Part shown: positions 2,915-37,200 of the stretch, in pieces | Layout: every line of letters starts with the position of its first letter | How positions within the stretch are numbered: the stretch's first letter is position 1 | From: a virus | Reading direction: 5' to 3' (one strand) | Length of the DNA: 42,546 nucleotides | IMG/VR virus record: IMGVR_UViG_3300045988_157693 | Coordinates: 1 to 42,546 of that record | The notes under the pieces: model-generated | Databases searched by the model: none | What the model was told of the DNA's origin: nothing | What the model saw: the letters and a program-made list of their open reading frames with translations, nothing else | Translations under genes and position numbers: made by a program

Positions 2915-2946
2915 AATGTTATCAATACGAAAGGGGATTGCAAAAT

Positions 2947-3320: not shown

Positions 3321-3324
3321 GCCG

Positions 3325-3396
3325 ATGTACGCATTTCTTATGTTATGTATTGTGCTTACAATGGGTGCAGTTTTTATCTGCGACATCAAAAAATAA
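3325..3396 (+). CDS. Possible 23-aa hydrophobic peptide (MYAFLMLCIVLTMGAVFICDIKK)
   Basis: GAGGTG RBS 5 nt upstream. It is very short, so the call is weak. Confidence 0.3.
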   Translation: MYAFLMLCIVLTMGAVFICDIKK

Positions 3397-3413
3397 AGGA
3401 AGGATGAAACACT

Positions 3414-3512
3414 ATGACGGAAAAAGAATTTATAGACAGCCTTAATGAAGAGGTTGTTATCATCAGCAAGGCTGAGTATGACAGATTGAAAGGCGGTGAA
3501 AACAATGGATAA
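3414..3512 (+). CDS. Possible 32-aa protein (MTEKEFIDSLNEEVVIISKAEYDRLKGGENNG)
   Basis: GGAAGGA RBS 9 nt upstream. It overlaps the next start. It is below the ORF-track size cutoff. Confidence 0.4.
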   Translation: MTEKEFIDSLNEEVVIISKAEYDRLKGGENNG

Positions 3513-8924: not shown

Positions 8925-9242
8925 ATGAGTAAAGAAGAAAAACCAATCTTGAACTTGCAGAAGGGTTGTCCGTTTTGTGGTAACATGGACTTAGTCTCAG
9001 GATACAACCCGACTCAGAACGAGGTGAAAATCGCTTGCAAGGATTGTGGATATTTTATTACTTTCAAGCAAGCACCGCCTATGTATGTGCCATATTTAGC
9101 AGAGAAAGTATGGAATTTAAGAGCCGATGAGGAAAAGCCAACAGCGGAAAATACAGAATCAACAGCGGAGGTTATCTTATCAGAACTCAAGGATATTAAG
9201 TCATATGTAGCTGAACTGGTAGGATATAGTCTTGAAAAATGA
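8925..9242 (+). CDS. Lar-like zinc-ribbon protein (restriction-alleviation family pattern)
   Basis: CPFCGN...CKDCGY...AEKVWNLRA resembles the Lar family signature (CPFCG ... AWNRR). Confidence 0.65.
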   Translation: MSKEEKPILNLQKGCPFCGNMDLVSGYNPTQNEVKIACKDCGYFITFKQAPPMYVPYLAEKVWNLRADEEKPTAENTESTAEVILSELKDIKSYVAELVGYSLEK

Positions 9243-9415
9243 TAGACTCTGAAAAAATCAAAAAAGCGTTAGATGCAATGGATAACGCAGACCTGCAAAA
9301 AGAATATAACCCTATTGCAAGCCAAAAACATATGGAAATGATGTTGAAAACAGCAAGACCATATCTATACAGAAAATACAAGGAGTGGCAGAAAGAAAAT
9401 GTCAAAAATGATTGA
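9239..9415 (+). CDS. Hypothetical 58-aa protein (not in ORF track)
   Basis: ATGA overlap with 8925..9242. Translation: MIDSEKIKKALDAMDNADLQKEYNPIASQKHMEMMLKTARPYLYRKYKEWQKENVKND. Confidence 0.55.
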   Translation: MIDSEKIKKALDAMDNADLQKEYNPIASQKHMEMMLKTARPYLYRKYKEWQKENVKND

Positions 9416-9791
9416 TTGTTCAAAAACAGCGAATTATCTTAGTGAAAAACTAAGAATGACGAAAAAAACAAAGACTGGATTATGCAAAACTAAGTGTAGT
9501 GACTGTCCTTTGTGCGGTGATAACAACGGTGAAGGTTTATCGTGTCCAATCTTTGAAATGTATTATCCCAAAAAAGCAATTGAAGCTGTTCAGCGGTGGA
9601 GCGATGAGCATCCACCGAAAACTTATTTGTCCGAATTTCTGAAACATTACCCAAATGTTCAGCTTTATGATGCTGGAATACCTAAAGGCATATGTCCATA
9701 TCATTTAGGGCTTATGAGCAAAGATAATTGCAGAAAAGACCATTACTGTCTTGGATGTTGGAATCAGTCTATTAAGGATGGTGAAGAGTGA
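9399..9791 (+). CDS. Cys-rich hypothetical protein
   Basis: CSDCPLCG, CPIF and CLGCW motifs. Confidence 0.8.
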   Translation: MSKMIDCSKTANYLSEKLRMTKKTKTGLCKTKCSDCPLCGDNNGEGLSCPIFEMYYPKKAIEAVQRWSDEHPPKTYLSEFLKHYPNVQLYDAGIPKGICPYHLGLMSKDNCRKDHYCLGCWNQSIKDGEE

Positions 9792-10087
9792 TGGAAATTA
9801 TGTATAACGAAAAAACAGGAAAGTTTGAGCCTGCTAAAAAGCCATATAAGACCATTGAAATCAAATACGAAACCGAAGAAGACTACAACAATTTTGAAAA
9901 AATACTTGAGTTAAGTAAGTCAAGAAAGCCTATTTTGGTCGATGGACAGGTTATCCGTTATGTGACTACATATGAGTGTCCTAACTGCGGAAGGCAATTC
10001 ACAGGAAAAGGCATAGCAAATTACTGCTATAATTGTGGGCAGAGGTTTGACTGGTCTGGCAAAATGGAGTGTGAAAACAATGATTGA
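9788..10087 (+). CDS. Zinc-ribbon protein
   Basis: GTGA overlap (GTG start at 9788 across the upstream TGA). CPNCGRQF...CYNCGQRF. Confidence 0.8.
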   Translation: MMEIMYNEKTGKFEPAKKPYKTIEIKYETEEDYNNFEKILELSKSRKPILVDGQVIRYVTTYECPNCGRQFTGKGIANYCYNCGQRFDWSGKMECENND

Positions 10088-10421
10088 AAAAGAATTAAAA
10101 ATCCGTGATATTTGCGGTGACTATGCTTTGGATATACCGTTCGCAGACGGTAGTGTAAACACGATATACTTTAATTCAAAACGAAATGCCGAAACAGTTA
10201 AGCATATTATCGAAGTTGACGGTAGTAAACCCAATCATGCTACGGTGTGTGAAATGGAAGAAATCAGGCACGGAAAGTGGGAACACGACAGCGGGGATGT
10301 CGGCTATACAAATTATTTATGTTCTGAGTGTAAAAATTTTTTCACTTTTTACGAGGGCTTTGATTTGTATCCATACTGCCCTTATTGCGGTGCAAAAATG
10401 GATAAGGAGTGTGAAGAGTAA
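10080..10421 (+). CDS. Zinc-ribbon protein (113 aa)
   Basis: ATG at 10080 overlaps the upstream stop. CSECKNFF...CPYCGAKM. Confidence 0.8.
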   Translation: MIEKELKIRDICGDYALDIPFADGSVNTIYFNSKRNAETVKHIIEVDGSKPNHATVCEMEEIRHGKWEHDSGDVGYTNYLCSECKNFFTFYEGFDLYPYCPYCGAKMDKECEE

Positions 10422-17224: not shown

Positions 17225-17277
17225 TACCTCTTTCTTTCTGCCCGTCAAGCCGATAGCACAGCGATTAGATGTTATGC
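17225..17277 (-). repeat. Conserved 5' leader, copy 2
   Basis: The same 28-nt core as 16561-16588. Confidence 0.7.
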
Positions 17278-17763
17278 CAAGAGTGATTGTTTTTGTGTGA
17301 TTTTCTCACTTCCGAAGAGTTCACGGATTTCATCAAGACTGAAGGTTTTTTTACTCTTCTTCTTGTAATCTTCGTTGTGAAAATACCACGCTGTTTTCTT
17401 TTTCGAAAATCTGAATTTCAAGGCTTTCAACTGTTCACGGCAGTTATATGTGTTGCCTGTTACCCATACCCAATTACCGCAGATTTCAATTTCAATTCCC
17501 TGCAGTTTAACAAGTTCATTGATAATGTTTTTGAACTCTTCGGGAGTTTCTTTTACTTCTTCGGAAGTTTCGTACACTTTACCGTCTGCGGTTGATTTTG
17601 AGTTTTTGAGGATTGCAAAGAGTCTGTCATATTCAGCATTGATTTCTTGCATTTCTTCCGTTGTTCCGCCACAGTCAGGATGATGTGCCATTGCAAGTTT
17701 TTTGTACTGCTTTTTGAGTTCTTCAAGTGTTTTTGGATTGCTAAACCATTTTGTGTTTGTCAT
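17272..17763 (-). CDS. J-domain (DnaJ-like) protein
   Basis: LEELKKQYKKLAMAHHPDCGG...EINAEYDRL contains the HPD tripeptide. AAAGGAG RBS before the ATG at 17763. The longer track ORF runs through the promoter. Confidence 0.85.
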   Translation of the reverse strand: MTNTKWFSNPKTLEELKKQYKKLAMAHHPDCGGTTEEMQEINAEYDRLFAILKNSKSTADGKVYETSEEVKETPEEFKNIINELVKLQGIEIEICGNWVWVTGNTYNCREQLKALKFRFSKKKTAWYFHNEDYKKKSKKTFSLDEIRELFGSEKITQKQSLLA

Positions 17764-17812
17764 AGTGTTTAATCTCCTTTTGTTTTTTTGGAGGTTTCCC
17801 TCTGTTGTGACT

Positions 17813-17841
17813 ATAATAGCACGAATTTCGTGCCTTGTCAA
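17813..17841 (-). promoter_or_regulatory. Leftward promoter of the accessory island with a palindromic operator
   Basis: The minus strand reads TTGACA, 17-nt spacer, TATTAT. The spacer contains the perfect palindrome GCACGAAATTCGTGC (plus 17819-17833). Confidence 0.65.
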
Positions 17842-17921: not shown

Positions 17922-17977
17922 TTTTTTTGCTTATATAGTATTTAATTTAAACATTATAGTGCAAAAGAGGTGTGGCA

Positions 17978-18514
17978 ATGTCATCAAATAAATATCCGTG
18001 GGCTGAAATAGAGCAAGAGTACATTAACGGTTTGGAACAGTTTGAAATCCGCAAGAAATATGGTATGGCAGAGTCAACCCTGCGTAGGCATATAGACGAG
18101 TACGGTCTGCGTGAGAAAAGACAAAAAATGACACAAAATGTCTACAAAAAAGCTACTGAACAGATTGAAAAGCAAAAAGTCAACAAAATGACGAAACTCA
18201 TTAAAGCCTCAGATAAGATGGATGATTTAATCCTTGATTTTTTGAGGAGAGAGGGCGAGGAGTCAAACGGCTATGATGTTATCCCACCGATGCAGACTAA
18301 AGACCTGCAGAGCCTGTCAAGAGCGTTGAAAGATGCCGTAGAAGTCAAACAGAATCTACACGGCATTATCGGAAGACTTGAGGCTGAACGGCTTGCCCTT
18401 GAGCGTGAACGGCTTGCCCTTGAGCGTGAGAGACTCAAAGCACAACAGGACAAAGACAATATAGAGCCGACTATGTTTGCTCTCTCAGATGAGGCAGAGA
18501 GGTACGCAGAATGA
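17978..18514 (+). CDS. Terminase small subunit
   Basis: N-terminal HTH-like IRKKYGMAESTLRRHIDEYGL and a coiled-coil C-terminus. It overlaps the terL start. AAAGAGG RBS. Confidence 0.75.
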   Translation: MSSNKYPWAEIEQEYINGLEQFEIRKKYGMAESTLRRHIDEYGLREKRQKMTQNVYKKATEQIEKQKVNKMTKLIKASDKMDDLILDFLRREGEESNGYDVIPPMQTKDLQSLSRALKDAVEVKQNLHGIIGRLEAERLALERERLALERERLKAQQDKDNIEPTMFALSDEAERYAE

Positions 18515-19929
18515 CAAAGATTAACTATTTAGGTGTACCAAATGACAAGCAAAGACAATTCTTGCTTGCAAAGCAGAAATATGTTGCGTATGGTGGAGCG
18601 AGAGGCGGAGGAAAATCCTTTGCTGTGCGAATGAAAGCTAAATTACTGTGTGCGAGGTACGCAGGAATTAAGATACTTATTGTGCGTAGGACTTACCCCG
18701 AATTACTCAACAACCACATTAACACGCTAAGGGCAGAGTTAGCTGGCATCGCCCGATACAACACACAGGACAAGATTTTTACATTTCCGAACGGCTCAAC
18801 GATAAAATTCGGCTACTGTAAAAACGATGCTGACTTGCAACAGTATCAAGGAGCAGAATTTGATGTGATTTTCATTGACGAGGCTTGTCTGCTTTCAGAA
18901 CACCAAATCAAAGCTATTACGGCTTGTTTGCGTGGTGTCAACAATTACCCGAAAAGAATATATTACACGCTCAACCCAGGGGGACAGAGTCACGGTTATT
19001 TCAAACGGTTGTTCATTGACCGCAAATTTGGTCAGTATGAGCAGGCTGACGATTACTGCTTTATACAGTCGCTTGTCACCGATAATAAAGCGTTAATGGA
19101 AAGTCAGCCTGAGTATATACAACAGCTTGAGGCATTGCCCCCGAAACTCCGTGATGCTTGGCTATACGGTAGATGGGATGTCTTCGAGGGTATGTTTTTT
19201 GAAGATTTTCGCACAGAGGTTGATGTTGCAGAGGCACACAAGCTCGGCTTATCGCCTGAGGATGCTCTCAAATACGGCAGATACACAAATGTGATAGAGC
19301 CGTTCGATATACCGCAAGAATGGCGAGTATATAGAGCATATGACTTTGGTTACGGTAAACCATTCGCAATGCTGTACATAGCTGTTGACTATGACGGAAG
19401 AGCGTATGTTATTGACGAGTATTACGGATGCACGGCAACACCAAACGAAGGTGTCAAGTGGCAACCCTACAAGCAATTTGAAATGCTGTCTGAATACGAA
19501 CACACACAGCCACAGCTTGCAGGTCGGGATATTCAAGGAGTGGCAGACCCAGCAATTTGGGACGGCTCAAGAGGCGAGTCTGTCAACGATGTAGCCGAAA
19601 AATACGGTATTTACTTTGACAAAGGACAGAATGACCGTATTGCGGGATGGATGCAGATGCATTACCGTTTTGCTTTCGATGAAGTCGGCAAGCCGATGCT
19701 TTATGTGTTCAGCAACTGCAAACACACAATAAGGACTCTGCCCCTTCTTATGTTTGATGAGACAAAAAAAGAGGACTTGGACACAAGCCAAGAAGACCAT
19801 ATAGCCGATGCGTTGCGGTACTGGTGTATGTCCAGACCGATAGCACCTGCACGCAAGATTGAACCGAAGATACCACAGCCGAATCCGCTGTCGGAAGATA
19901 ACGAAAGGAAGAATTACTTATGGCATTAA
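18511..19929 (+). CDS. Terminase large subunit
   Basis: Walker A YGGARGGGKSFAV, Walker B-like FDVIFIDEA, and a C-terminal nuclease region with conserved acidic residues. Confidence 0.93.
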   Translation: MTKINYLGVPNDKQRQFLLAKQKYVAYGGARGGGKSFAVRMKAKLLCARYAGIKILIVRRTYPELLNNHINTLRAELAGIARYNTQDKIFTFPNGSTIKFGYCKNDADLQQYQGAEFDVIFIDEACLLSEHQIKAITACLRGVNNYPKRIYYTLNPGGQSHGYFKRLFIDRKFGQYEQADDYCFIQSLVTDNKALMESQPEYIQQLEALPPKLRDAWLYGRWDVFEGMFFEDFRTEVDVAEAHKLGLSPEDALKYGRYTNVIEPFDIPQEWRVYRAYDFGYGKPFAMLYIAVDYDGRAYVIDEYYGCTATPNEGVKWQPYKQFEMLSEYEHTQPQLAGRDIQGVADPAIWDGSRGESVNDVAEKYGIYFDKGQNDRIAGWMQMHYRFAFDEVGKPMLYVFSNCKHTIRTLPLLMFDETKKEDLDTSQEDHIADALRYWCMSRPIAPARKIEPKIPQPNPLSEDNERKNYLWH

Positions 19930-22034
19930 GACGAAAAAAAAGACGAGAAGAAAAGGAACGCAGACAGGCACAACAGCAGACAGAACTGCAGAGAACGCAG
20001 TCTGCTCCCGACAACCGTATTTTGTGGACTCAAGACGAGCGAAATCGGCTTGAACATATGCAGAACGGCTCAGAATTGCCACAGGATGACACAACAACCG
20101 AGCAGACAACGCAGATGTCATCTGATGACAATGCACCTACACAAGGCATTGTAGGCGGTACTACAACAGAGGCAAAAGCCGTGTTGAATCCTGTTGTAAC
20201 TGAGCGTACAGTCTTACAGGCATATGACCGATTAATGCGGTACAAGACCTACAAGACAAGCCTTGACAGACGAATCAAAGCAAATGAAGATTACTGGAAA
20301 CTCCGTCAATGGGATTACTATGACCACAATGGCAACAAGAAAAAAGGTGACAACGAGGTCGCAACAGCTTGGCTGTGGAACTGTATTGCATCTAAGCACG
20401 CAGACTTGATGGACGGTTATCCCGAATCAAACATCAGACCTAAGCGTGAAGATGATGTGGAAGAGGCTGAAAAGCTCAAGAGTATTCTCCCTGTTATCTT
20501 CGAGGAAAACGATTACGAAAACACATACTCAGAACTTGCCAATTACATACTTAAACAGGGAGTTTGTTGTGCAGGAGTCTTTTGGGACGGTACTAAGCAC
20601 GATGGACTCGGTGACATATCAGTCGAGAAAATCGACATACTCAATCTGTTTTGGGAGTCAGGTGTCACAGACATACAGGATAGCAAAGAGGTGTTCCATA
20701 CTTCGCTTGTGGATAATGAATCACTTGTCAAGCAATATCCACAGCTTGAAGGTAAACTCAACAGCCACAAGGTTATATCAGACCAGTATCGTACAGATGA
20801 TGCCATCGACACAGACGGTAAGACAACCGTTGTAGATTGGTTCTATAAGCAGTCAGATAGCAACGGCAATCAGGTCTTGCATTATTGTAAGTTTGTAGAG
20901 GGTACTGTACTCTTTGCAACCGAAAACGATGCCGAAAACTATCCGAATGGTTGGTATGACCACGGACTCTATCCCTTTGTTGTTACTCCTCTCTTCCCTG
21001 TTGAGGGCAGTATTGCAGGATACGGATACACCGACATTGGCAGAGGTGACCAACACGCAATAGATGTGCTTACACAGGCTATGCTTACTAATGCGAGAGT
21101 AACAAGCAAGCCGAGATACTTCGTCAAGACCAACGGAGCGGTCAACGAGGCTGAGTTTGCTGATTGGAGCAAAAACTTTGTACATACAACAGGTAGTCTT
21201 AACGATGACTCAATCATGCCGATTACAACCTCACCAGTACCGACATTTGTTGTCAATATGAGGGAAAACCTCATAGCTGAGATGAAGGAAACACTCGGTA
21301 ACCGTGATGTGAACAATGGCGGTAGCACTTCGGGAGTCACCGCCGCCTCGGCTATTGCGACAATGCAGGAGCAGAGCGGTAAGATGAGCCGTACTCATAA
21401 TAAGATTATGTACACGATGCACCGCAAAATCACAAATATGGTCATTGAATTAATCCGTCAGTTTTACGATGTACTCAGAGAGTACCGCATTACAGGCAAA
21501 TACGGACAAGAAAAATTCGTACAGTACAACAACGCAGGACTCAAACCGCAGAAACAACCGAGCATTCTCGGCAGAGATATGGGACTCAGACTGCCTTGCT
21601 TTGATATAGAAGTAACCGCACAAAAAGCCTCACCATACACGAAAATGGAGCAAAACGAACTTGCGATACAGTTGTACAACCTCGGTGTGTTCTCTCCTCA
21701 GAATGTAGATATGTCATTAATGCTGTTACAGACTATGGATTTCGCTCATAAGGATGAAATCATACAGATGATAATGCAAAACGGCACGATGTTTAATAAG
21801 TATCAGCAGTTACAGAAGATTGCGTTCAACCTTGCACAGCAGGTAGATATGCAGAATGGCACGCAGATGGCTGAACAGCTTGCACAGGCGATTCTCGTTG
21901 AAAATGGAAACAATTCCGAAGAACCGAGCGGTAATCTCTCTGTTGATGGCATTACAACAGACGATACATCCGAAAGGTCATTTATGACGAATGCAAGGGA
22001 AAAAGCACAGGCATCAACTCAGGTTAATCAGTAG
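19920..22034 (+). CDS. Portal protein (704 aa)
   Basis: Called from its size and its position directly after terL. AAAGGAAG RBS. Basic N-terminal extension. Confidence 0.8.
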   Translation: MALRRKKRREEKERRQAQQQTELQRTQSAPDNRILWTQDERNRLEHMQNGSELPQDDTTTEQTTQMSSDDNAPTQGIVGGTTTEAKAVLNPVVTERTVLQAYDRLMRYKTYKTSLDRRIKANEDYWKLRQWDYYDHNGNKKKGDNEVATAWLWNCIASKHADLMDGYPESNIRPKREDDVEEAEKLKSILPVIFEENDYENTYSELANYILKQGVCCAGVFWDGTKHDGLGDISVEKIDILNLFWESGVTDIQDSKEVFHTSLVDNESLVKQYPQLEGKLNSHKVISDQYRTDDAIDTDGKTTVVDWFYKQSDSNGNQVLHYCKFVEGTVLFATENDAENYPNGWYDHGLYPFVVTPLFPVEGSIAGYGYTDIGRGDQHAIDVLTQAMLTNARVTSKPRYFVKTNGAVNEAEFADWSKNFVHTTGSLNDDSIMPITTSPVPTFVVNMRENLIAEMKETLGNRDVNNGGSTSGVTAASAIATMQEQSGKMSRTHNKIMYTMHRKITNMVIELIRQFYDVLREYRITGKYGQEKFVQYNNAGLKPQKQPSILGRDMGLRLPCFDIEVTAQKASPYTKMEQNELAIQLYNLGVFSPQNVDMSLMLLQTMDFAHKDEIIQMIMQNGTMFNKYQQLQKIAFNLAQQVDMQNGTQMAEQLAQAILVENGNNSEEPSGNLSVDGITTDDTSERSFMTNAREKAQASTQVNQ

Positions 22035-22049
22035 TAAGGAGAATACTAT

Positions 22050-22379
22050 ATGCTCAAAGTTAAAGTTGACATTAAGAATTACACCGTAACAATGAGAGGT
22101 CACGCAGATTTTGCTGAAAACGGCAAGGACATTGTGTGTGCAGGAGCATCAACGCTCTTGTACACACTTGCAAACACGCTTGAAGAATTTCGCACAGCTA
22201 TGACAGAATCACCGTCATTTACTATCAGCGGTGAGGGCGAGAAACAGCGTGTTACATACAGGTGCAAGCCTAATGAGGAATACGAGCCTAATGTGCAGTT
22301 AGTCTTCATGACTGTTACAACAGGCTTTAATCTGCTTGCCGAAAACTATCCCGACAACATTAAACTTACCGTTATTTAA
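22050..22379 (+). CDS. prp: Prp-family cysteine protease (ribosomal-processing protease homologue)
   Basis: GHADFAENGKDIVCAGASTLLYTL matches the GHA...DIVCAAVS signature of Prp/YsxB. Confidence 0.8.
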   Translation: MLKVKVDIKNYTVTMRGHADFAENGKDIVCAGASTLLYTLANTLEEFRTAMTESPSFTISGEGEKQRVTYRCKPNEEYEPNVQLVFMTVTTGFNLLAENYPDNIKLTVI

Positions 22380-22420
22380 CTCTTTCCCAACTCTTTCCCA
22401 AAGTTTCTAAGGTTTCTAAG
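22378..22420 (+). repeat. Two adjacent tandem duplications
   Basis: aactctttccc x2 (22378-22399) and gtttctaag x2 (22403-22420). Confidence 0.85.
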
Positions 22421-22446
22421 CACCCGATTATGGGTGCTTTTTTTAT
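22418..22446 (+). terminator. Rho-independent terminator after prp
   Basis: aagcaccc-gattat-gggtgctt followed by T7. Confidence 0.85.
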
Positions 22447-22455
22447 GCTCAAAAT

Positions 22456-22515
22456 AACATTTTGCTGATGACCGCAAAATGTTCAATTCGTAAAAATGGG
22501 TGTTTTTTACGAATT
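22456..22515 (+). other. Twin perfect hairpins upstream of the scaffold gene
   Basis: 10-bp stem 22456-22465/22474-22483 and 12-bp stem 22485-22496/22504-22515. Confidence 0.6.
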
Positions 22516-22630
22516 GCAAAATTTTTTATCGTTTTGAAATTGATGGTTTGAGGTGTTTAGTCTTGCAATGCTAAATTGTGAACATAGGCTCGTGACCTTA
22601 ACCACAGACTTTATATGGAAGGAGATAGCA

Positions 22631-23629
22631 ATGATTAAGACTATCTCAACAGCCGTTGTTACTGAACTTATGTTCCGTTGTTTTAACATTCAGCTTTTCG
22701 CTGACGGTGGCGGTGGTGCATCTGCAGGTGCATCCGCAGGAGCAGGAACAGGTGAAGGCTCAACAGGCATTGCAGGAGAAACAACAAACACATCGTTCCC
22801 TGCCGATGGCAAAGGCTCTGCACCGAAGATTGTTTACGGTAAGCAGAGTGAAAGCAACACCGAAGTCGGTGCTGTTCCCGAAGAAAAGCCGAAAATGACT
22901 TTTGCCGAACTCGTTAAATCTGACGAGTGGAAAGACGATGCCCAGAAGTATATGGACAAAGCCTTTTCAAAGAGATTCAAAGAGCAGGAGTCGCTCAAGG
23001 CTGAGAACGCAAGAATGCGTGACATCCTCAACATAGCTAATGTCAGATACGGACTCGATTCCGCATCAGACAGTTTCCTTGATGACCTCAGCAACAGTAT
23101 TCAGAACGATACGAAACTGTATGAAGATGAGGCACTTGAGGCAGGATTACCTGTTGAGGAATATGTCAAGGTAAAGAAAGCAGAGAGAATTCTTGAAAAC
23201 AACAAGCGTGAACAGGCAGACAGAGAAAGACAGGCATTCATTAACGAACATTGCAAGAACCTTGTGAGTCAGTCGGATGCAATGAGAGAACAGTTTCCGT
23301 CTTTCGACCTTGAAACAGAGATGAGTAATCCTCAGTTTCGCAAGCTCGTTGACCCGCAAGAGTTAGGCGGTATCGGTCTTTCAGTAGACAACGCTTACCG
23401 TGTGATTCATTACAAGGATATTCTCAACGCTACTGTGAATAATGCGGTCAATCAGACAGCTATCAATACTGCGAATGCAGTCAAAGCTAACAAAGAAAGA
23501 CCAAGGGAAAACGGCATGAATCACCGTGCATCCGTCATTGTGAAGGATGACCCGTCACAGTTTACTCTTGATGATTTCAAGCGTATCAAGGAACAGTTTA
23601 TTAGGACTGGTGTTGCTCCCAAATTCTAA
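22631..23629 (+). CDS. Scaffolding protein with an L27-like N-terminal propeptide
   Basis: GGAAGGAG RBS. N-terminus ...FNIQLFA|DGGGGASAG. The central region is charged and helical. It lies immediately upstream of the capsid gene. Confidence 0.75.
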   Translation: MIKTISTAVVTELMFRCFNIQLFADGGGGASAGASAGAGTGEGSTGIAGETTNTSFPADGKGSAPKIVYGKQSESNTEVGAVPEEKPKMTFAELVKSDEWKDDAQKYMDKAFSKRFKEQESLKAENARMRDILNIANVRYGLDSASDSFLDDLSNSIQNDTKLYEDEALEAGLPVEEYVKVKKAERILENNKREQADRERQAFINEHCKNLVSQSDAMREQFPSFDLETEMSNPQFRKLVDPQELGGIGLSVDNAYRVIHYKDILNATVNNAVNQTAINTANAVKANKERPRENGMNHRASVIVKDDPSQFTLDDFKRIKEQFIRTGVAPKF

Positions 23630-23647
23630 CTTTAAAGGAGCATTATT

Positions 23648-24646
23648 ATGTCTAATATTATGTACAATCTTATTCTCCAGCTTTTCGCTGGCGAAACAAC
23701 CTTAAACGCAAACAAAACATCCGCAAGTGGAATGTCCCCGACAATGAAGACATTCTATGACACTTCCCTTCTCGAAAACGCAAGGGCAGAACTTATCTTC
23801 AATCAGTTTGGCGATAAGCAGAAGATTCACGGTAATAAGTGCGAATGGAGAAAATTCAACACATTCCCGAAGGCTCTCACACCGATTACCGAAGGTGTTA
23901 CACCAACAGGACAGGCTTTCGGCATGACGAAGATTGAAGGTACAACATCACAGCACGGCGATTACACCACAATCACAGACAGACTTGAATATGAGGCATA
24001 TGACCCGATTATTCAGGGCTGTACAGAAGAGATGGGTGCATCAGCAGGTGCGACTATGGACACTCTCACAAGAAATGTCCTCATTGCAGGTAACTCTGTT
24101 ATGTACTGTCCGAAGAAGGACGGTACAGTGATTTCAACAAGAGATACACTCACAGCAGATTGTGTTCTCACTCCTGCGGTTGTTAAAAAGGCTGTTACTT
24201 GGCTCAAAAAAAACAAAGCACCGAAGATTAACGGAAGCTATGTATGTCTTATCCATCCCTCTGTCGCTCATGACCTTACAGAGTCTGACGAGTGGAAAGA
24301 GTACCACAAGTACAATGACACAGCTCCTATCTTCAAGGGTGAAATCGGCGAACTTCACGGTTGCCGTTTCGTTGAGTCAACAGAGTGCAAGATTCACGCA
24401 CGCAACAAACTCGGCATTGCTACATATGACACACTTTTTCTCGGTGCAAAGGCTTTCGGCATCATTGAACCTGAAAACGAGTCAATGCATATGATTATCA
24501 AGGACAAGTCGGAAATCGGCGGTCCTCTCGAACTTTACAGCACAGTAGGCTACAAATTTAGCCACGGTGCTAAGATTCTTTATGAGGAAAGAATCCTCCG
24601 TGTCGAGTCAGGCTCTTCTTACTCATCTGTTGACGAGGAAAACTGA
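23648..24646 (+). CDS. Major capsid protein with an L27-like N-terminal propeptide
   Basis: N-terminus MSNIMYNLILQLFA|GETT. Size and position fit a capsid gene. KTFYDTSLLENARAELIFNQFG is a typical capsid N-terminal pattern. Confidence 0.88.
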   Translation: MSNIMYNLILQLFAGETTLNANKTSASGMSPTMKTFYDTSLLENARAELIFNQFGDKQKIHGNKCEWRKFNTFPKALTPITEGVTPTGQAFGMTKIEGTTSQHGDYTTITDRLEYEAYDPIIQGCTEEMGASAGATMDTLTRNVLIAGNSVMYCPKKDGTVISTRDTLTADCVLTPAVVKKAVTWLKKNKAPKINGSYVCLIHPSVAHDLTESDEWKEYHKYNDTAPIFKGEIGELHGCRFVESTECKIHARNKLGIATYDTLFLGAKAFGIIEPENESMHMIIKDKSEIGGPLELYSTVGYKFSHGAKILYEERILRVESGSSYSSVDEEN

Positions 24647-24660: not shown

Positions 24661-24930
24661 ATGGCTACAAATTCAAATAAGAATGCAAATGCAGGTCTTA
24701 CAGGTAAGAAGGTTACTGTTATTCTTCCTCGTGACCCTCAGATTGAGGGTGACGGAGCAGAACAGGAATTCTTCTCGGTCAACGGTCACAATATTCTTGT
24801 GCAGACCGATGTACCTGTTGAAGTAGATGAAATCTTTGCTGAGGTTATCAATAACAAAGCAAAAGCTCGCACACAGGCGAGAGAATTCATCAAGAAAATG
24901 GCATTCAAAGACAGCAAGCCGATGGCTTGA
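24661..24930 (+). CDS. Small head-associated protein (89 aa)
   Basis: AAGGAG RBS. Followed by a strong terminator. Confidence 0.8.
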   Translation: MATNSNKNANAGLTGKKVTVILPRDPQIEGDGAEQEFFSVNGHNILVQTDVPVEVDEIFAEVINNKAKARTQAREFIKKMAFKDSKPMA

Positions 24931-24942: not shown

Positions 24943-24975
24943 AAGAGGCGGTTTTTTCCGCCTCTTTTTTGTTTT
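24943..24975 (+). terminator. Rho-independent terminator
   Basis: aagaggcgg-tttttt-ccgcctctt followed by a T-run. Confidence 0.85.
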
Positions 24976-24991
24976 AAAAGGAGATGAAAAT

Positions 24992-31289: not shown

Positions 31290-34200
31290 ATGAATTACCT
31301 TGATTACCTTAAAAAGAAAAAAGATGAAAATGATAATTCCCAGTCGAACACCACGACTGGGAATACCTCTAACGAAAAAAGCGATAGTTTGCTTGATGCG
31401 ATTAACGGCAAAAACGGTAACAATGATTATCTTGATTATCTCAACAGTCAGCCTGTACTTGGCCAGGAAGAAGAAGAAACACAGGCATTACACGATATGG
31501 GTAATGGCGAAGATGTGTTGTCAAGATGGTATGACTCTGCAAGCAATGCAACATCTAAGGCTTATTACGAGAATCAAAATACAGCATTTGATTCTTTAAA
31601 AAATAGAGCTGATACAATCTCAAAATATTATCAAACAGCCGATGCTCTCAAAGGCTCTGCTAAACAATTTTATGATAAATACGGCTATACTGATGACTCA
31701 TCAGATATGCAGAGTGCTATCTCTGACCTTAACATTGCAGAAGACAATTTCAAAACTAACGCAAAAGAAATTCAAAATGCAATGTCAGATTTTGACACAG
31801 AACAGGAATACAAATCTGCTGTTGCACAGGCAGAAGAAGATGCCAAAACTTCTGATGATTTACAGAAAGAATATGACAAGAAGAAAGCCGAGTATGACAG
31901 TACTTGGGGCGATTTCAACAAGGAATATGCCGAAATTGGCGGTAGTTACAATAACAATCCCTTCACTACGCAGGGCAAAAACGCAAACAAAAAATTGCAT
32001 GAACGCACCGACCAAAAAAAGGAACTTGGTGAACTGCAGAGAAAAATTGACCAAAAAAAGGAACTTGAAAACGAAAAGAAATACTATACTGATTTTCGCA
32101 AGCAAAATCCCGAAGTAGCAAAAACTCTTGATGCTTATTATGATATGCAGTCATATGAAGAGGAACACTCCAAAGATGCATTAGATACATATAACAAAGA
32201 GGTTTTAAAAGAGAAACTCAAAAAAGGTAAACTGCCGACAGATTCCTTATATACCGATGAAGAGAAAAAAGCTATCGAAACTAACTTTAATTCGCTCAAG
32301 ACTCTTGATGGTTGGAATGTTGACCAAATTTATAAATACTACAAACGGGCAAAAGACAGAGAAAAAGCCGAGAAAGAAAATGAAAATATTAAAGATTTCG
32401 CTGATAAGCACCCGATTGCAAGTACGGCTATAAGTACGCTTAATATGATTCCGTCAGCTTTTGAAACCGCACCAAAACAAGTCGCATCAAATATTGATAA
32501 ATGGACAGGCGGTGACGGATATTATAATCCCGAGGAATCTGCCGTGTACCAAAACAATTTATTGCAACAGGAAGTCGCAAGTAATATAGATAATCCGTTA
32601 GGAAGATTGGCTTACCAACAGGGAGTTAGCCTTGTTGATAACGCTATTCGTATGGGTATCGCATATGCAAATCCTGCTGTCGGATTATCTATGATGGGTG
32701 CAGAGGCAGCGACACAGGGATTTAATGATACTGTTGAAAATGGCGGTTCAGTAGAGCAGGCTCTTGCCACAGGTCTTGTTTACGCAGGTGTTGAAGTGCT
32801 TACCGAAGGTGTATCACTTGGTAAACTGAAAAGTTTCAAGAATGGCGGTGTAAAGGAATTCAAGAGCATTTTAAAGAATGCAGGAAAGCAGATTTTGACC
32901 GAGGCATCGGAAGAAGTATCTGCAACGCTCCTTGATAGTGTAGCAGATGAAATCATTAACGGTAGCTTATCACAGCTTGAGACAGAGTATGACAAATATA
33001 TTGACAGCGGTATGTCCGAAACTGAGGCAGGACAGGCAGTAATGCTGAATTACGGCAGTCAGATTATACAGGATGCAATTGGCGGTGCATTGATGGGCGG
33101 AATTTCGGGTACTGCTGTCAATACATCTCAATACAGAAGAAATATTAAGGCAGGAAAATCTATATCCTCTCTTGATAACATAGACACAGTTAAGAATCTT
33201 GCCAAGCATTACGGTCTTAATGACAGCGTTACCGATTATGAAAGCAACCCAACGGATGCAAAACTCGGTGCTTTGCAGAGCGAGGCATACGAAAAAGCAA
33301 CAGAAAGTATGCCAACAGAAAAAGACCTTAAAAAAGTCATCAAAAAATCAAACCTTGCATCAGATGAAAAGGTTGTTGCAAACAAACTTACAAACGGTGA
33401 AAATTTGACGGACGATGACCTTGAAAAAATCAAAAAGTCTGAAAATTTGAAGTCACTTCTTGCAAGCAATGTTGTCAATCAGACAAAGACTGCAAGATTT
33501 AATCAGCAGACTGCGTTGCTTTCCGCAGACACGAAACTGTTCACACCGAGCCTCATTGAGTTTAACGCTGAGAAAAGTGATACTGATGCAAATCTTAACA
33601 ATGCCGAAACACTCGACAAGTTTCTTTCGGAAAACGCTAAGAATATGACAATCAACACCGATACGGTTGATAAGATGAAAGATGCTTATAACGGATTAGA
33701 AGATAAAATCGAGCCTGATACTTTCGCTATGGAGTATGCGAGATTTTTCAATCAGGGTGTTCGTGCGGTTGCATTTCAGAGCTTGAATAGCACGGTATCA
33801 CAGTTACCGTACAATGTACAAGTATCGGCTTATGAAGATGGCTTGAATAAGTACACAACGGCACTCAAAGCTGGCAACGCTCTTTCAAAATTACAGCAGG
33901 AATGGAAAGACAAAACAAACGGTTACGCTAAAGGTACGGTTGATACTTCCGCTCTTGAAGGTATCAAACTTAACGATGAACAGAAAGCATCTGTTGATTA
34001 TATCTCAGGCTATGCTAATCACGGTTTGAATGTTAAGTTTTATGCATCACGGGCTGACGAAAACGGTGTGTATATAGACGATAACGGTGGTTATGACTCT
34101 TTAACTAATACCATAATGATTGATATTAATGCAAAGAAAGAAACCATCAACGATGTTATAAGTAAAGGTGCGATGATGTCAACTTTCGGCCACGAACTTT

Positions 34201-37200
34201 CCCACCTTGCTGAACACGCACCCACAGAGTATGCAGAGCTTTCAAAAGCTATTCAGGATGCCGTTGGTGCTGATACATTCAACGATGCAGTCGATAAGCA
34301 TTATTCTATACTTGAAGAACGCAACAGCGACAAATGGCAAAAAATGTCAGAGGATAAAAAACAAATTTATGCGACAAGAGAGGCAGTTGCCGAATTTTCT
34401 TCTGACCTTGTTAATCAAGCTAAAATTCTTGAAAGGATGTCAAAAGAGAATCCCTCTGTCGGAAAGAGATTTATCAATTTCATTAAGAAAGTTATTAGCA
34501 AGATTAAAAACATTCTCAAGGATAACAGAGGTATGACCGATGAGGCAAGACTACTTGCTAATAACCTTGCAAGCAATGCTGAAAAACTGCAGTCAATTGT
34601 TGATAAGTACGAAAAAGCTGTCATCGAAGGACTTAAAAATCAGAATGCAAAAGTTCATACAAATAAATCTTCTGTAAAAGAAAATAATACAAAAACTCAA
34701 AGTAATACAAGAACAGGAGATTTTCTTACAGAAAGAGAAAGAACGCTTGTAGCAACACACAATATAAGTTCACAGAACCTTATGAATCTTATCAACGATT
34801 TTGACGGAGCAGGTTTACCAGTACCGAGCATTGCAATTGAGAAAGCTGATAGTGTTCACGATAATTTTGGTGATGTTACTCTGTTGTTTAACAAGGACAC
34901 GATTGACCCACAGAATAATAGTAATAACAATGTGTACAGCCGTGATGCGTGGACAAGTACCTTCCCACAGACGGAATACAAAATTAACGCTGAGGGTCTT
35001 AAAGCAATTGCGAAAAAGTTAGATTTATCTGAGAATTATCTCGAAAGTAATATATTTAACACTAATGATTTAAATGGAATTAAGCGTAAATTTTTAAATG
35101 ACAGATATGTACGAAAAGCCTTCGTTGAAGAAAACAATATTGAGGTTACCCCTGTTGCATATGAAAAAAAACCTAAATTCTCATTTTTCGCAAACCCAAC
35201 TGTCAAGTCTTTTATCAAAAACAACAACTGTACATTTGATAGACTTGTTAATGACAAAGAATTTCGAGATGCTTTTTTAAAGGTTGCTAAAGAGTCAATT
35301 CGACTGCGGATTGCGTTGCGACAAGTCGAAAGATTTGAAAACACTCTTGATGATTGTGCAAAATCTAAAGATGTGTATAGTGATTCCAAAGAGTCAATTG
35401 AATACTGCATTGAATATGCCAAAGGTAATGCTAAAAAAGAAGTGACTGAATACTCATATGAAGAAGGTATAGAAAATGCTATCAATGAGCATAAAGCGGA
35501 ATTTGAAAAGTATATAGACAATATGCTTTCTGAAAGCGATGTCATCGGAGATAAATATATTGTCAGAGATGATGTCAACTTATACAACAATGACGGTAGT
35601 CGAAAATCTTTTGAACAGACACATTACGATTACAATATTGATAATGTAGTCAAAGCTATGAAAGTAGGAAAGAATGTAGTTGGGAATTCCTTTTTAGGTG
35701 GAATGGAATTCACGAAAACGATATCTGCACAAAATCTTAATAGCATTGACGAAATAAAAAGTAACGAACATATGTTACAAGAATTATCGCCTGAGGAAAT
35801 CGAAACCCAAAAGGAAAACATTTCCAATCTGCTTGCTCCGATAATAAGAGAGGTTGCTGACAGCGATAAATATAGCAACGGTTTTATTGGTGCAAGCGAA
35901 AATATTGTTGATGCATTTAAGGCATATAATACGGTTGACGGTGTTTATAAATATCTTAAACAGTATTATAGTAACCTCAAAAAAAGCACGGTAAATAAAC
36001 TTTTCAAGGCGAGAGATGAGATTGCCGAAATGCCAGTAAGATACTTCGAGGCAAAGCCACACAGAGTTGTAGGATTTGACGAGGTAATGGCGGTGGTTAT
36101 TCCTGCTGATGCAGACGAAAAATTAAAAACTGCTCTCAAAAAAATGGATATACCGATGTATGAGTATGCTGATGAAAGTCAAAGAGCAGATGCTACGCAC
36201 AAAGCAATCAACACGGAATATACAGACAAATCGGGTGTAACTTATGACAATCTTCAATTTTCAAGCAACAGAGGTGACTTTCTTTCAGAAAAAGAGGCTG
36301 ATAACCAATACTCTCAAGCCGTCAAAAGCAATGACATTGAAACAGCACAGAAATTTGTCGATGAAAAAGCTATGTCTTGGGGAGCATACTCAGAGAATGG
36401 AAAAACTCCAACCAAACTGTATCACGGCACAGAAAGTTTTGGCTTTACTGCTTTTGACCTTTCTAAGATGGATAACGGAGCAAGTATATTCTTGACGAAT
36501 AAACCCGAAATTGCCTCTACATATTCAGGTGTTGAAATTGAAAACAATATACAACACACAATAAACTCCATTAAAGCGATAAGCTCTAAAGTTAAATCAA
36601 TGTCTATTTATGAAATTGAAAAGAGTTTAAACTCGCTCACGCACGGTAACACTAATCCCGAATTAAGAGCAGATAATGACGATTTGCATTACTCAATTGT
36701 AGATGAAAACGCTGTTAATAAGTTTACGGCTAAAGTTAATTCTGAAATTGATTATCTCATAGATTACTTGAAAGGCAGAGAAGGATATTTTAAGAAATTC
36801 CCGAAAATTGATTACGATACTAAGTATTCTGATTTTGTAGAAATGCTTAAAAATCGTCAATATAATAAGATTTCAAATCCTTTATTCAATTTAATTGAAA
36901 GCACAAAGTTTGACTCTACGGAAGAAGAACAGAAATTTCGGAAAATTGAAAGAGACAGTTATGAATTAGTTAGAATTTTGGAAGTTTATAATAATTCCCC
37001 AATAATCATAAGTAAGGATTCCCAAAGCACAATTTTTGGCGTTTTTAACGAAAATAAAGCTAAAGATTATCTAAAAGGTAAATTAACGGAACAGGTACAA
37101 AAAGGTAACTATTCGTTGTTTGCTAAAATAGAAAATCCTCTTATTATTGATGCCAGCAAAAGTAATTGGAATGAAATTGATGTGAAATCAGTTATAAATA

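What the first reader, a model, noticed from the sequence alone, without database searches (positions are those of the whole stretch)
22050..23692. Phage-encoded Prp protease with L27-mimic cleavage motifs on both scaffold and capsid proteins
ORF 22050..22379 carries the Prp/YsxB signature (GHADFAENGKDIVCAGASTL). The next two genes both start with propeptides ending in the motif LQLFA: the scaffold has ...FNIQLFA/DGGGG (codons at 22691-22705), and the capsid has MSNIMYNLILQLFA/GETT (23678-23692). The DNA cagcttttcgctg is identical in both.

This mimics the N-terminal extension of Firmicutes ribosomal protein L27 (MLKLNLQFFA/SKK), which Prp removes. It also mimics the 80alpha capsid and scaffold propeptides, which are cut by the host Prp.

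Here the phage brings its own protease and has no classical HK97-type prohead protease gene. This implies Prp-dependent head maturation. It also ties the host to bacteria with an extended L27.
Basis: partly seen in the sequence, partly recalled or inferred. Interest (0 to 1): 0.65.

Follow-up and report, generated by a model that had tools for sequence, protein, structure and literature searches.

The report
Phage-encoded Prp protease with tagged head proteins
A prophage of the gut bacterium Ruminococcus bromii carries its own copy of the small protease that normally trims ribosomal protein L27, and both of its head-building proteins start with the L27-like tag that this protease cuts, so the phage very probably trims its own head proteins.

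Summary
ORF 22050-22379 is a Prp-family cysteine protease: Pfam PF04327 at 69.9 bits, His18/Asp27/Cys30 conserved, and an AlphaFold model that matches only Prp crystal structures. The next two genes are an all-helical scaffold (true start 22631) and an N4-gp56-type major capsid protein (23648). Both begin with a short leader ending in LQLF|A, the L27/80alpha Prp motif.

In 51 of 51 related loci with enough upstream DNA, a Prp gene sits between portal and scaffold. Both downstream proteins keep Q-x-[FY]|[AGSN], and the two tags change together between clades (QLF|A, QFF|N, QRY|A with QAF|A). 68 of 70 scaffold homologues carry the tag. Relatives with the same capsid family but no Prp (Bacillus phage Page, Paenibacillus API480, Streptomyces FlowerPower) have no tag.

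Two unrelated siphophages repeat the arrangement: Lactococcus TP712, and MT835606, which also tags its tail tube. The host is R. bromii. No other protease was found in the window.

Cleavage itself is inferred, not shown. This combines two known things: host-Prp cleavage in 80alpha and the phage-borne C108 protease of Cp-1. I found no paper describing the combination. I rate it a new variant of a known kind.

The parts
19920..22034 (+). Portal gene (P22-like), immediately upstream of the protease gene; context
   Evidence: PF16510 at 89.7 bits and phrog_156.
22050..22379 (+). Phage-encoded Prp-family cysteine protease, 109 aa. His18 is codon 22101-22103, Asp27 is 22128-22130 and Cys30 is 22137-22139.
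   Evidence: PF04327 at 69.9 bits against a cut-off of 27, and phrog_4478 'peptidase'. phmmer to S. aureus Prp 4PEO/7KLD gives E 4e-8. G17, H18, A19, G25, D27 and C30 are invariant in 22 diverse sequences. The AF2 model has pLDDT 89.7, and all 14 significant PDB fold hits are Prp structures with TM 0.62-0.79.
22418..22447 (+). Intrinsic-terminator-like hairpin plus T-run directly after the protease gene. It separates the terminase-portal-Prp unit from the scaffold-capsid unit.
   Evidence: 9-bp stem, 5 GC pairs, followed by TTTTTTAT.
22631..23629 (+). Scaffolding protein, 332 aa
   Evidence: It lies between the protease and the capsid gene. phrog_13908 with E 3.5e-51. The AF2 model is all-alpha, with residues 18-85 disordered. 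Relatives have stop codons upstream of this ATG.
22631..22699 (+). Predicted scaffold leader M1-F23 (MIKTISTAVVTELMFRCFNIQLF). The predicted Prp cut lies between 22699 and 22700 (F23|A24).
   Evidence: It matches the motif MLxx(D/N)LQ(F/L)F'A (PMC9405229). Q21 and F23 are invariant in 41 scaffold homologues, and 68 of 70 homologue clusters carry the motif.
23648..24646 (+). Major capsid protein, N4-gp56 family, 332 aa
   Evidence: TIGR04387 at 210.9 bits against a cut-off of 60. phrog_1357 with E 4.9e-67.
23648..23686 (+). Predicted capsid leader M1-F13 (MSNIMYNLILQLF). The predicted Prp cut lies between 23686 and 23687 (F13|A14).
   Evidence: The motif is conserved in capsid homologues of 41-99% identity and co-varies with the scaffold tag.
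24943..24976 (+). Terminator-like hairpin after the small ORF downstream of the capsid gene. It closes the scaffold-capsid unit.
   Evidence: 9-bp stem, 6 GC pairs, followed by a T-run.

Best explanation
The window is a roughly 42-kb temperate podovirus-like phage of Ruminococcus bromii. Its head module runs TerL, portal, Prp, terminator, scaffold, capsid.

The 109-aa Prp is a His18/Cys30 cysteine endopeptidase of MEROPS family C108. It recognises the L27-like tag [LF]-x-[LI]-Q-L-F|A at the N-terminus of the phage's own scaffolding and major capsid proteins. It cuts after Phe, removing 23 and 13 residues and leaving Ala as the new N-terminus.

The enzyme has no extra domain that could target it into a procapsid, and each substrate has a single N-terminal site ahead of a flexible stretch. 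Processing is therefore most likely cytoplasmic, before or during procapsid assembly as in 80alpha. It is leader trimming, not scaffold digestion. Carrying the enzyme makes the phage independent of the amount and specificity of host Prp.

- **Shown here:** family membership, catalytic residues, fold, the motifs, their conservation, co-variation and synteny, and the host.
- **Inferred:** that cleavage occurs, where it occurs, when it occurs, and that the phage enzyme rather than host Prp does it.
For: **Enzyme.**
- PF04327 scores 69.9 bits.
- The S. aureus Prp catalytic residues H22/D31/C34 (PMC9405229) align with H18/D27/C30. These residues are invariant in 22 diverse sequences and retained in 37 distinct phage copies.
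- The AF2 model matches only Prp crystal structures.

**Substrates.**
- Both tags match the published L27 motif and the 80alpha gp46/gp47 leaders, which Prp cuts (PMC9405229 Tables 1-2; PMC5744158).
- The motif is unique to these two proteins in the window.

**Comparative evidence.**
- Of 55 related loci, all 51 with sufficient upstream DNA have Prp between portal and scaffold.
- Across 22 complete scaffold-capsid motif pairs, P3 Gln is invariant, P1 is Phe or Tyr, and P1' is A, G, S or N.
- Scaffold and capsid tags of one phage resemble each other more than shuffled pairs do: 5.45 against 4.42 of 9 positions, p about 5e-5, not corrected for phylogeny. One clade has RLQFF|N in both proteins.
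- 68 of 70 scaffold homologue clusters (26-99% identity) keep the tag while the rest of the protein diverges.

**Negative controls.**
- Phages with the same capsid family and gene order but no Prp gene have no tag: Bacillus phage Page, Paenibacillus API480 and Streptomyces FlowerPower.

**Independent recurrences.**
- Lactococcus phage TP712 has orf36 Prp, an 80alpha-type DUF4355 scaffold (KFNLQRF|A) and a capsid (KFNLQRF|S).
- MT835606 has Prp, scaffold, capsid and a PF06199 tail tube, all tagged with LQLF|A.

**Other support.**
- No other peptidase domain was found in the window.
- A phage-borne C108 protease that trims a major head protein has precedent in Cp-1 (PMC12445089). Cp-1 orf13 aligns to the phage Prp profile at 93.8% probability.
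Against: - No protein-level data exist for this phage or any relative, so cleavage, site and timing are inferred.
- The tags also fit host L27 motifs of Clostridia (for example NLQLF'A and NLQFF'A; PMC9405229 Table 2). Host Prp could therefore cut them, as it does in 80alpha.
- In 80alpha, cleavage of the capsid and scaffold proteins is dispensable for viability (PMC5744158), so the functional need is unclear.
- The capsid tag has Ile rather than Asn or Asp at P5.
- The window Prp scores far below NCBIfam's ribosomal Prp equivalog cut-offs (48 bits against 122 or more), so its specificity cannot simply be transferred from host Prps.
- The co-variation test ignores shared ancestry.
Confidence: 0.77

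Rival explanations
1. Host Prp performs the cleavage, or most of it, as in 80alpha. The phage copy is a redundant booster that raises Prp capacity during the late burst of capsid and scaffold synthesis, so that L27 processing and head-protein processing do not compete.
For: The tags fit the general L27 motif, including those of Clostridia (PMC9405229 Table 2). 80alpha and related staphylococcal phages manage with host Prp alone (PMC5744158). The host R. bromii is a Firmicute and so should have prp (bioRxiv 10.1101/2025.08.01.668195).
Against: The gene is retained at the same position in 51 of 51 informative loci and in two unrelated head modules. Several clades have tags that depart from any listed L27 (QFF|N, QRY|A, QRF|S), together with diverged Prps. 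That pattern suggests private enzyme-substrate pairs rather than reliance on the host enzyme.
Confidence: 0.13
2. The leaders are assembly or folding tags that are not removed, or whose removal is irrelevant. The real target of the phage Prp lies elsewhere, for example host L27 or another host protein with the motif, as a way of manipulating host translation.
For: In 80alpha the scaffold leader is required for assembly but its cleavage is not (PMC5744158). The phage motif would also match host L27, so the phage enzyme could act on it.
Against: Tag presence follows Prp presence strictly, both within the same capsid family (Page, API480 and FlowerPower lack both) and across families. Gln at P3, Phe/Tyr at P1 and a small residue at P1' are the most conserved positions of otherwise variable leaders, which is what a protease site would show. 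The gene sits inside the head-morphogenesis cluster.
Confidence: 0.07
3. Chance or passenger: a host-derived prp picked up as a moron, and two leader sequences that resemble L27 by coincidence.
For: The protein is small, and public databases annotate it as ribosomal Prp or YsxB-like.
Against: The chance of both tags arising is about 4e-7. Synteny and motif are conserved down to 41% capsid identity and 23% Prp identity. The protein scores far below every host Prp equivalog model.
Confidence: 0.02

Closest known systems
Staphylococcus phage 80alpha gp46 (scaffold) and gp47 (capsid), processed by host Prp (Wall et al. 2015; PMC5744158; PMC9405229)
   Same: Both the scaffold and the major capsid protein carry a short N-terminal leader ending in NLQ(F/H)F|A that copies the L27 extension. 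A Prp-family His/Cys protease cuts after Phe. There is no classical prohead protease.
   Different: In 80alpha the enzyme is the host's ribosomal Prp (rplU-prp-rpmA operon). Here the enzyme is encoded by the phage, between portal and scaffold. The head proteins are not homologous: this phage has an N4-gp56-type capsid, a scaffold with no DUF4355, and a podovirus-like module. The window's scaffold leader is longer (23 aa).
Streptococcus phage Cp-1 protease, MEROPS family C108, clan CR (Martin et al. 1998, cited in PMC12445089 and PMC9405229)
   Same: It is a phage-encoded member of the Prp peptidase family that removes an N-terminal segment of the major head protein and is described as essential for maturation. 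Cp-1 orf13 aligns with the phage Prp profile (hhalign 93.8%), with the His and Cys positions matched.
   Different: Cp-1 removes 48 residues at a site that is not L27-like (...ARINH|ATVP by my count from the sequence). Its scaffold has no tag. The enzyme is very divergent (PF04327 at 18.5 bits, below the cut-off). Cp-1 is a phi29-like protein-primed phage. That orf13 is the protease is my recollection of the 1998 paper, which I could not read.
Bacterial ribosomal-processing protease Prp (S. aureus SaPrp, PDB 4PEO/7KLD; YsxB; PF04327)
   Same: Same fold, size and catalytic residues (His, Asp, Cys), and the same recognition motif in the presumed substrates.
   Different: The window protein is not in the rplU-prp-rpmA operon. 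It scores 48 bits or less against all 13 NCBIfam Prp equivalog models, whose cut-offs are 122-225. Its presumed substrates are virion proteins, not L27.
Lactococcus phage TP712 orf36/orf41/orf42 and human-gut contig MT835606 (unannotated in GenBank)
   Same: A phage-borne Prp gene lies upstream of a tagged scaffold and a tagged capsid. In MT835606 the tail tube protein is tagged as well.
   Different: These are siphovirus head modules unrelated to the window's. TP712 has the 80alpha-type DUF4355 scaffold, and its tags read QRF|A and QRF|S. I found no publication on these features.

Membership tests
Prp peptidase family (Pfam PF04327, MEROPS C108) | Significant match to the family profile above the curated cut-off | tested here: met
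   PF04327 at 69.9 bits against a gathering score of 27, E 2.2e-19, covering profile positions 4-90 of 90.
Prp peptidase family (Pfam PF04327, MEROPS C108) | His/Cys catalytic dyad plus the loop-stabilising Asp (SaPrp H22, C34, D31; PMC9405229) | tested here: met
   H18, C30 and D27 align to SaPrp in phmmer. They are invariant in 22 diverse sequences and retained in 37 distinct phage Prps.
Prp peptidase family (Pfam PF04327, MEROPS C108) | Prp fold | tested here: met
   The AF2 model has pLDDT 89.7 and pTM 0.83. The only Foldseek PDB hits with E below 1e-3 are Prp structures (2IDL, 2G0I/J, 7KLD, 7JVS, 1S12, 4PEO), with TM 0.62-0.79.
Prp peptidase family (Pfam PF04327, MEROPS C108) | Endopeptidase activity after Phe in an LQ(F/L)F|A motif | not testable with these tools
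   This needs an in vitro cleavage assay or N-terminal mass spectrometry.
Ribosomal-processing Prp (orthologue of host prp) | Location in the rplU-prp-rpmA operon, with L27 as substrate | tested here: not met
   The gene lies between the portal and scaffold genes of a prophage. The genuine operon is seen for comparison in L067.
Ribosomal-processing Prp (orthologue of host prp) | Score above an NCBIfam Prp equivalog cut-off | tested here: not met
   The best score is 48 bits (NF011126, cut-off 135). All 11 models hit are far below their cut-offs.
Prp-tagged phage structural proteins (80alpha gp46/gp47 type) | N-terminal leader ending in the L27-like motif (D/N)LQ(F/L)F|A within about 25 residues of Met1 | tested here: met
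   The scaffold reads ...CFNIQLF|ADGG (F23) and the capsid reads MSNIMYNLILQLF|AGET (F13). The capsid has Ile, not Asn or Asp, at P5.
Prp-tagged phage structural proteins (80alpha gp46/gp47 type) | Homology to the 80alpha scaffold (DUF4355, PF14265) or capsid | tested here: not met
   The window scaffold has no Pfam hit. The capsid belongs to the N4-gp56 family. TP712 orf41 does hit PF14265.
Prp-tagged phage structural proteins (80alpha gp46/gp47 type) | Leader actually removed in virions | not testable with these tools
   No proteomic data are available for this phage.
Classical prohead proteases (HK97 U35/S78, T4 gp21 S77, ClpP/S49 types) | A gene with one of these peptidase domains in the head module | tested here: not met
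   No peptidase family other than PF04327 was found in any window ORF of 120 aa or more scanned with Pfam or PHROGs. ORFs under 120 aa were not all scanned.
N4-gp56 family major capsid protein (TIGR04387) | Score above the equivalog cut-off | tested here: met
   210.9 bits against a cut-off of 60.

The most novel reading that the evidence does not exclude
Prp plus its L27-like leader is a portable, phage-private tag-and-protease module. It moves between unrelated head and tail modules of Firmicute phages: N4-type podovirus heads, 80alpha-type siphovirus heads, and tail tubes. It evolves specificity-shifted enzyme-tag pairs (QLF|A, QFF|N, QRF|A/S, QRY|A) that are insulated from host Prp and L27. 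On this reading, phage-borne Prps form a widespread and unrecognised class of virion-protein processing proteases. If expressed in lysogens, they could also back up host L27 processing, much as the mobile-element protease Rrp does in S. pneumoniae TIGR4.
Probability: 0.3. Interest if true: 0.7.

Novelty: new variant of a known kind. Interest (0 to 1): 0.5.

Why it matters
- **It joins two separate observations.** 80alpha was presented as the first phage whose head proteins are cut by a host protease (PMC5744158). The Prp field still treats the L27-like leaders on phage proteins as an unexplained curiosity (bioRxiv 10.64898/2026.08.10.744006). This work shows that a large group of gut Clostridia phages, and the cultivable lactococcal phage TP712, carry both the enzyme and the tags. 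That links 80alpha with Cp-1.
- **It offers a tractable test system.** TP712 in L. lactis could be used to ask why these leaders exist, whether enzyme and tag co-evolve, and whether phage Prps can process L27.
- **It exposes an annotation problem.** Prophage Prps are being named 'ribosomal-processing cysteine protease Prp' (P0043). One NCBIfam 'equivalog' model, NF011134, is matched end to end by the TP712 prophage protein. This can mislead counts of prp copies when Prp is considered as an antibiotic target.
- **It adds to R. bromii biology.** The host is a keystone starch degrader of the human gut, and I came across no description of its phages in the papers I read, though I ran no search for them.

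Tried and rejected
**Searches that gave little or nothing**
- Megablast of the head module against GenBank phages found no match.
- The first word-indexed protein search with Prp alone found only 4 near-identical clusters. An alignment query was needed.
- Ten literature searches found no paper on phage-encoded Prp with tagged head proteins. They covered Prp/L27/phage, 'ribosomal-processing cysteine protease', DUF464, YsxB, Prp-like/PF04327, and motif strings such as LQFFA and NLQLF.
- Wall 2015, Wall 2017 and Martin 1998 are not in the held library. I therefore cannot exclude that Wall 2015 or a thesis mentions phage prp homologues.
- Hits for 'Prp' in the Listeria and Izhevsk phage papers were PRPP, so irrelevant.

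**Leads that turned out to be something else**
- The 'Staphylococcus phage SA 1306 Kay' Prp hit is host DNA: an rplU-prp-rpmA operon in an UNVERIFIED_ORG record.
- Three guessed integrase start codons failed in the exact look-up before the fourth (ATG at 1879) worked. Those contigs were circularly permuted phage genomes without host flanks. The host was found instead through the 82-aa gene at the other prophage end.

**Ideas considered and dropped**
- A promoter in the 22440-22630 gap: the simple sigma-70 scan found none there, so a separate late promoter for scaffold and capsid remains unsupported.
- The identical 13-nt DNA as a sign of duplication or gene conversion: it is just four shared codons.
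- Further Prp sites inside the 3251-aa protein or other late proteins: none were found.

**Not obtained**
- I could not obtain the R. bromii L27 or host Prp sequence.
Full report
**1. What is in the sequence**

The region lies in the late operon of a phage. The gene order is as follows:
- a putative small terminase (17972-18514);
- TerL (18511-19929; PF04466/PF03237);
- a P22-like portal (19920-22034; PF16510 at 89.7 bits);
- a 109-aa ORF (22050-22379);
- a 250-bp gap;
- a 332-aa protein (22631-23629);
- a 332-aa major capsid protein (23648-24646; phrog_1357; TIGR04387 N4-gp56 family at 210.9 bits against a cut-off of 60).

It scores 69.9 bits on Pfam PF04327 Peptidase_Prp (cut-off 27) and matches phrog_4478 'peptidase'.

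The two downstream proteins read MIKTISTAVVTELMFRCFNIQLFADGGGG... and MSNIMYNLILQLFAGETT.... The scaffold start at ATG 22631 has a ggaaggag ribosome-binding site. Relatives have stop codons just upstream of it and vary at residue 2 (I, V, D or N). The GTG at 22553 listed by the mechanical ORF finder is therefore not the start.

The 13-mer cagcttttcgctg is present exactly twice, at 22691-22703 and 23678-23690.

**2. More than chance**

The pattern [LIVMF]Q[LFIVM]FA occurs only twice in the six-frame translation of the whole 42.5-kb window, both at these N-termini. A relaxed pattern finds it N-terminally in none of the other ten late proteins. With the phage's own amino-acid composition, the probability of the motif within the first 30 residues is 6.5e-4 per protein, or 4e-7 for both.

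**3. The enzyme is a genuine Prp-family protease**

- phmmer against PDB sequences finds S. aureus Prp (4PEO/7KLD, E 4e-8), S. mutans SMU.848 and S. pneumoniae 2IDL. GHADFAENGKDIVCAGAS aligns to GHADHGEYGHDIVCAGAS.
- The residues shown by mutagenesis to be needed in SaPrp are H22, D31 and C34 (PMC9405229). They correspond to H18, D27 and C30 here.
- In an alignment of 22 diverse sequences (21 phage copies and S. aureus Prp; 23-47% identity to the window protein), the only invariant columns are G17, H18, A19, G25, D27 and C30. All 37 distinct Prp sequences from related loci retain GHA...D[IL][VI]C.
- An AlphaFold2 model built on 40 homologues has mean pLDDT 89.7 and pTM 0.83. Only the loop at residues 21-24, between His and Cys, has low confidence.
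- Foldseek against the PDB returns 14 hits with E below 1e-3. All are Prp structures (2IDL, 2G0I/J, 7KLD, 7JVS, 1S12, 4PEO), with TM 0.62-0.79. The next hit has E 6e-3.

The protein is not an orthologue of the ribosomal enzyme. Its best score against NCBIfam's 13 Prp equivalog models is 48 bits, where cut-offs are 122-225. It also sits in a head module rather than between rplU and rpmA.

**4. The cleavage site is one residue earlier than written**

The published L27 motif is MLxx(D/N)LQ(F/L)F'A(S/H)KK, cut after Phe so that Ala becomes the new N-terminus. 80alpha gp46 is ...KFNLQFF'ADQS and gp47 is ...KLNLQHF'ASNN (PMC9405229 Tables 1-2; PMC5744158).

The predicted bonds here are F23|A24 in the scaffold (between nt 22699 and 22700) and F13|A14 in the capsid (between nt 23686 and 23687).

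**5. Comparative evidence**

I collected 40 IMG/VR loci and 21 loci from GTDB genomes using the capsid protein. Capsid identity to the window runs from 99% down to 41% in the Prp-carrying group, plus a few distant capsids.

Of 55 loci that hold both scaffold and capsid homologues, 51 have a Prp gene between portal and scaffold. In the other four (L022, L041, L048, L056) the contig ends within 433 nt upstream of the scaffold gene.

There are 25 distinct motif combinations, of which 22 have both tags called. Examples include:
- scaffold LNLQLF|GEGG with capsid LNLQLF|SADV;
- NLQLF|ADGG with KLQLF|AWSE;
- FDLQLF|AEGG with FDIQLF|AFEA.

Gln at P3 is invariant, P1 is Phe (Tyr in one clade's scaffold), and P1' is A, G, S or N.

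The two tags of one phage change together:
- One clade has MSIEFRLQFF|NDEP (scaffold) and MFAFRLQFF|NATV (capsid), with a Prp carrying a 12-residue insertion.
- Another clade has ...SIQRY|ADGG and ...RLQAF|A, with a shortened Prp.

Mean identity between the scaffold and capsid tags of the same phage is 5.45 of 9 positions, against 4.42 for shuffled pairings (p about 5e-5). This test does not correct for shared ancestry.

An independent sample of 70 scaffold homologue clusters (26-99% identity) carries the tag in 68. The two exceptions are a truncated protein and one with a mis-called long start. In a 41-sequence scaffold alignment, Q21, F23 and G27 are among only nine invariant columns.

**6. 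Negative controls and independent recurrences**

Three phages share the capsid family. Bacillus phage Page and Paenibacillus phage API480 also show the same portal-scaffold-capsid gene order. None of the three has a Prp gene, and none has a tag on either protein:
- Bacillus phage Page;
- Paenibacillus phage API480;
- Streptomyces phage FlowerPower.

The distant capsid loci L037-L040 and L061 likewise have neither.

Conversely, two unrelated siphovirus modules repeat the arrangement:
- **Lactococcus phage TP712.** orf36 hits PF04327 at 73.8 bits. orf41 is MIEKLLKFNLQRF|AEEG and belongs to PF14265, the 80alpha gp46 scaffold family. orf42 is a capsid reading MKNKKLKFNLQRF|SGDV.
- **Human-gut contig MT835606.** It has Prp, a scaffold reading ...RMLQLF|AEET and a capsid reading ...MMLQLF|AAGD. 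A PF06199 tail tube protein reads MFETGLQLF|AEAV. This echoes the remark in PMC5744158 that the phi13 major tail protein carries the motif.

**7. Nature of the scaffold and likely timing**

The 332-aa protein has no Pfam family. Its AlphaFold model is entirely helical, with long helices at 101-140, 175-221 and 261-289. Residues 18-85 form a disordered Gly/Ala/Ser-rich stretch that begins just before the predicted cut (pLDDT 70, pTM 0.39). This is what one expects of a scaffolding protein.

Three points bear on timing and mode of action:
- Prp has no appendage that could target it into a procapsid.
- Each substrate has one N-terminal site.
- In 80alpha, procapsids already contain cut proteins, and cleavage is not the expansion trigger (PMC5744158).

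I therefore infer leader trimming in the cytoplasm or during assembly, not HK97-style digestion.

A terminator-like hairpin follows the Prp stop codon (22418-22439 plus a T-run), and another follows the small ORF after the capsid gene (24943-24966). This would be consistent with a low-copy enzyme transcribed with terminase and portal, and high-copy substrates in a separate unit. No promoter was detected in the gap, so this remains a suggestion.

**8. No other protease**

I scanned all window ORFs of 120 aa or more. Pfam and PHROGs gave the following identifiable functions and no peptidase other than Prp:
- integrase, repressor, ERF recombinase and a replication initiator;
- methylase, dUTPase and a GH25 endolysin;
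- a DnaJ-domain protein and an internal virion protein;
- a 3251-aa protein with a PBECR5 nuclease domain.

Smaller ORFs were not exhaustively scanned.

**9. Host and genome**

- The window is a circular permutation of a roughly 42.4-kb genome (L070).
- The same phage is integrated in a 185.7-kb metagenome scaffold.
- The flanking host proteins are exact matches to Ruminococcus bromii / Ruminococcoides proteins: PGM WP_304012818.1, ABC-F WP_304017667.1 and LDH.
- Relatives sit in MAGs labelled Ruminococcus, Acutalibacteraceae, Oscillospiraceae and Lachnospiraceae.

All of these are Firmicutes, the group reported to have long L27 and prp throughout (bioRxiv 10.1101/2025.08.01.668195). I could not retrieve the R. 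bromii L27 itself.

**10. Comparison with what is known**

Two precedents exist.
- **80alpha.** Host Prp cuts L27-like leaders on both the capsid and scaffold proteins (PMC5744158).
- **Cp-1.** Streptococcus phage Cp-1 encodes a protease that MEROPS places in the same family, C108. It removes 48 residues from the major head protein (PMC12445089, PMC9405229). Cp-1 orf13 aligns with the phage Prp profile at 93.8% probability with His and Cys in register. Its target site is not L27-like.

The present system combines the two: a phage-borne C108 enzyme with 80alpha-type tags on both head proteins.

Public databases already label the protein 'YsxB-like protein [Bacteriophage sp.]' (DAE43255.1). They label a relative 'ribosomal-processing cysteine protease Prp [Lachnospiraceae bacterium]' (P0043, which is exactly the prophage gene in L021/L045). 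I found no paper that describes or interprets it. The most recent preprints from the laboratory that discovered Prp still call the phage leaders intriguing and mention only host cleavage.

The family is large. A profile of phage Prps retrieved more than 7,500 clusters, and many of the best hits lie on 38-43-kb contigs. That set must also include host Prps, and I could not separate the two groups.

**11. Verdict**

This is a new variant of a known kind. It is of moderate interest, mainly because it is widespread, unrecognised in the literature I could search, and directly testable in TP712.

Noticed in passing
window 31290-41045 (+): A single 3251-aa ORF takes up nearly a quarter of the genome. 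It has a PBECR5 (Barnase/EndoU/colicin-like) nuclease domain at residues 1148-1257 and matches phrog_22978 (unknown function). It is probably a giant virion or ejection protein of this tail-tube-less phage.
   Followed up: partly
L063 (Lactococcus phage TP712) 5001-5288; NCBIfam NF011134: The TP712 prophage protein orf36 matches the NCBIfam 'equivalog' model NF011134 for ribosomal Prp end to end (218 bits, cut-off 185). That model seems to describe a prophage Prp, so PGAP will name such phage genes 'ribosomal-processing cysteine protease Prp'.
   Followed up: partly
L068 (MT835606) 9716-10240: In this gut siphophage, a PF06199 tail tube protein also starts with an L27-like leader (MFETGLQLF|AEAV), in addition to the scaffold and capsid. 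In that lineage Prp tagging extends to tail proteins.
   Followed up: partly
L067 (GenBank OR844993.1, 'Staphylococcus phage SA 1306 Kay') 2615-3566: This 163-kb record, deposited as a phage (UNVERIFIED_ORG), contains the S. aureus rplU-prp-rpmA operon, with L27 starting MLKLNLQFFASKKG. It is host chromosomal DNA rather than phage.
   Followed up: partly
L075 (ENA ERZ27307130 k141_84622) 8925-10249: An R. bromii-type contig carries the phage's 82-aa gene and a 351-aa version of the neighbouring 514-aa gene. These lie between host genes on both sides, at the same chromosomal site as the full prophage in L074. This may be a prophage remnant left at the attachment site.
   Followed up: no
window 455-500: Tandem copies of ttgacgaa(a)gt lie between the 82-aa ORF and the integrase gene. 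They could be integrase arm-type binding sites near attP.
   Followed up: no
window 17272-17841 (-): A DnaJ (J-domain) protein is encoded on the opposite strand, just upstream of the terminase genes (PF00226 at 27.1 bits, just under the cut-off; phrog_15863). It may be a phage co-chaperone.
   Followed up: no
L031 5869-6040 (and L032-L036): In the most divergent Prp-carrying clade, the capsid gene appears to start at an ATG with a strong RBS about 55 codons before the RLQAF|A site. That would give a long leader with a hydrophobic segment (MFVFSIFMLAAVLCAVCLY...) instead of the usual 10-20 residues.
   Followed up: no
window 24661-24930 (+): An 89-aa ORF lies directly after the capsid gene and before a terminator. 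It has no family match and could be a decoration or head-completion protein. It carries no Prp motif.
   Followed up: no
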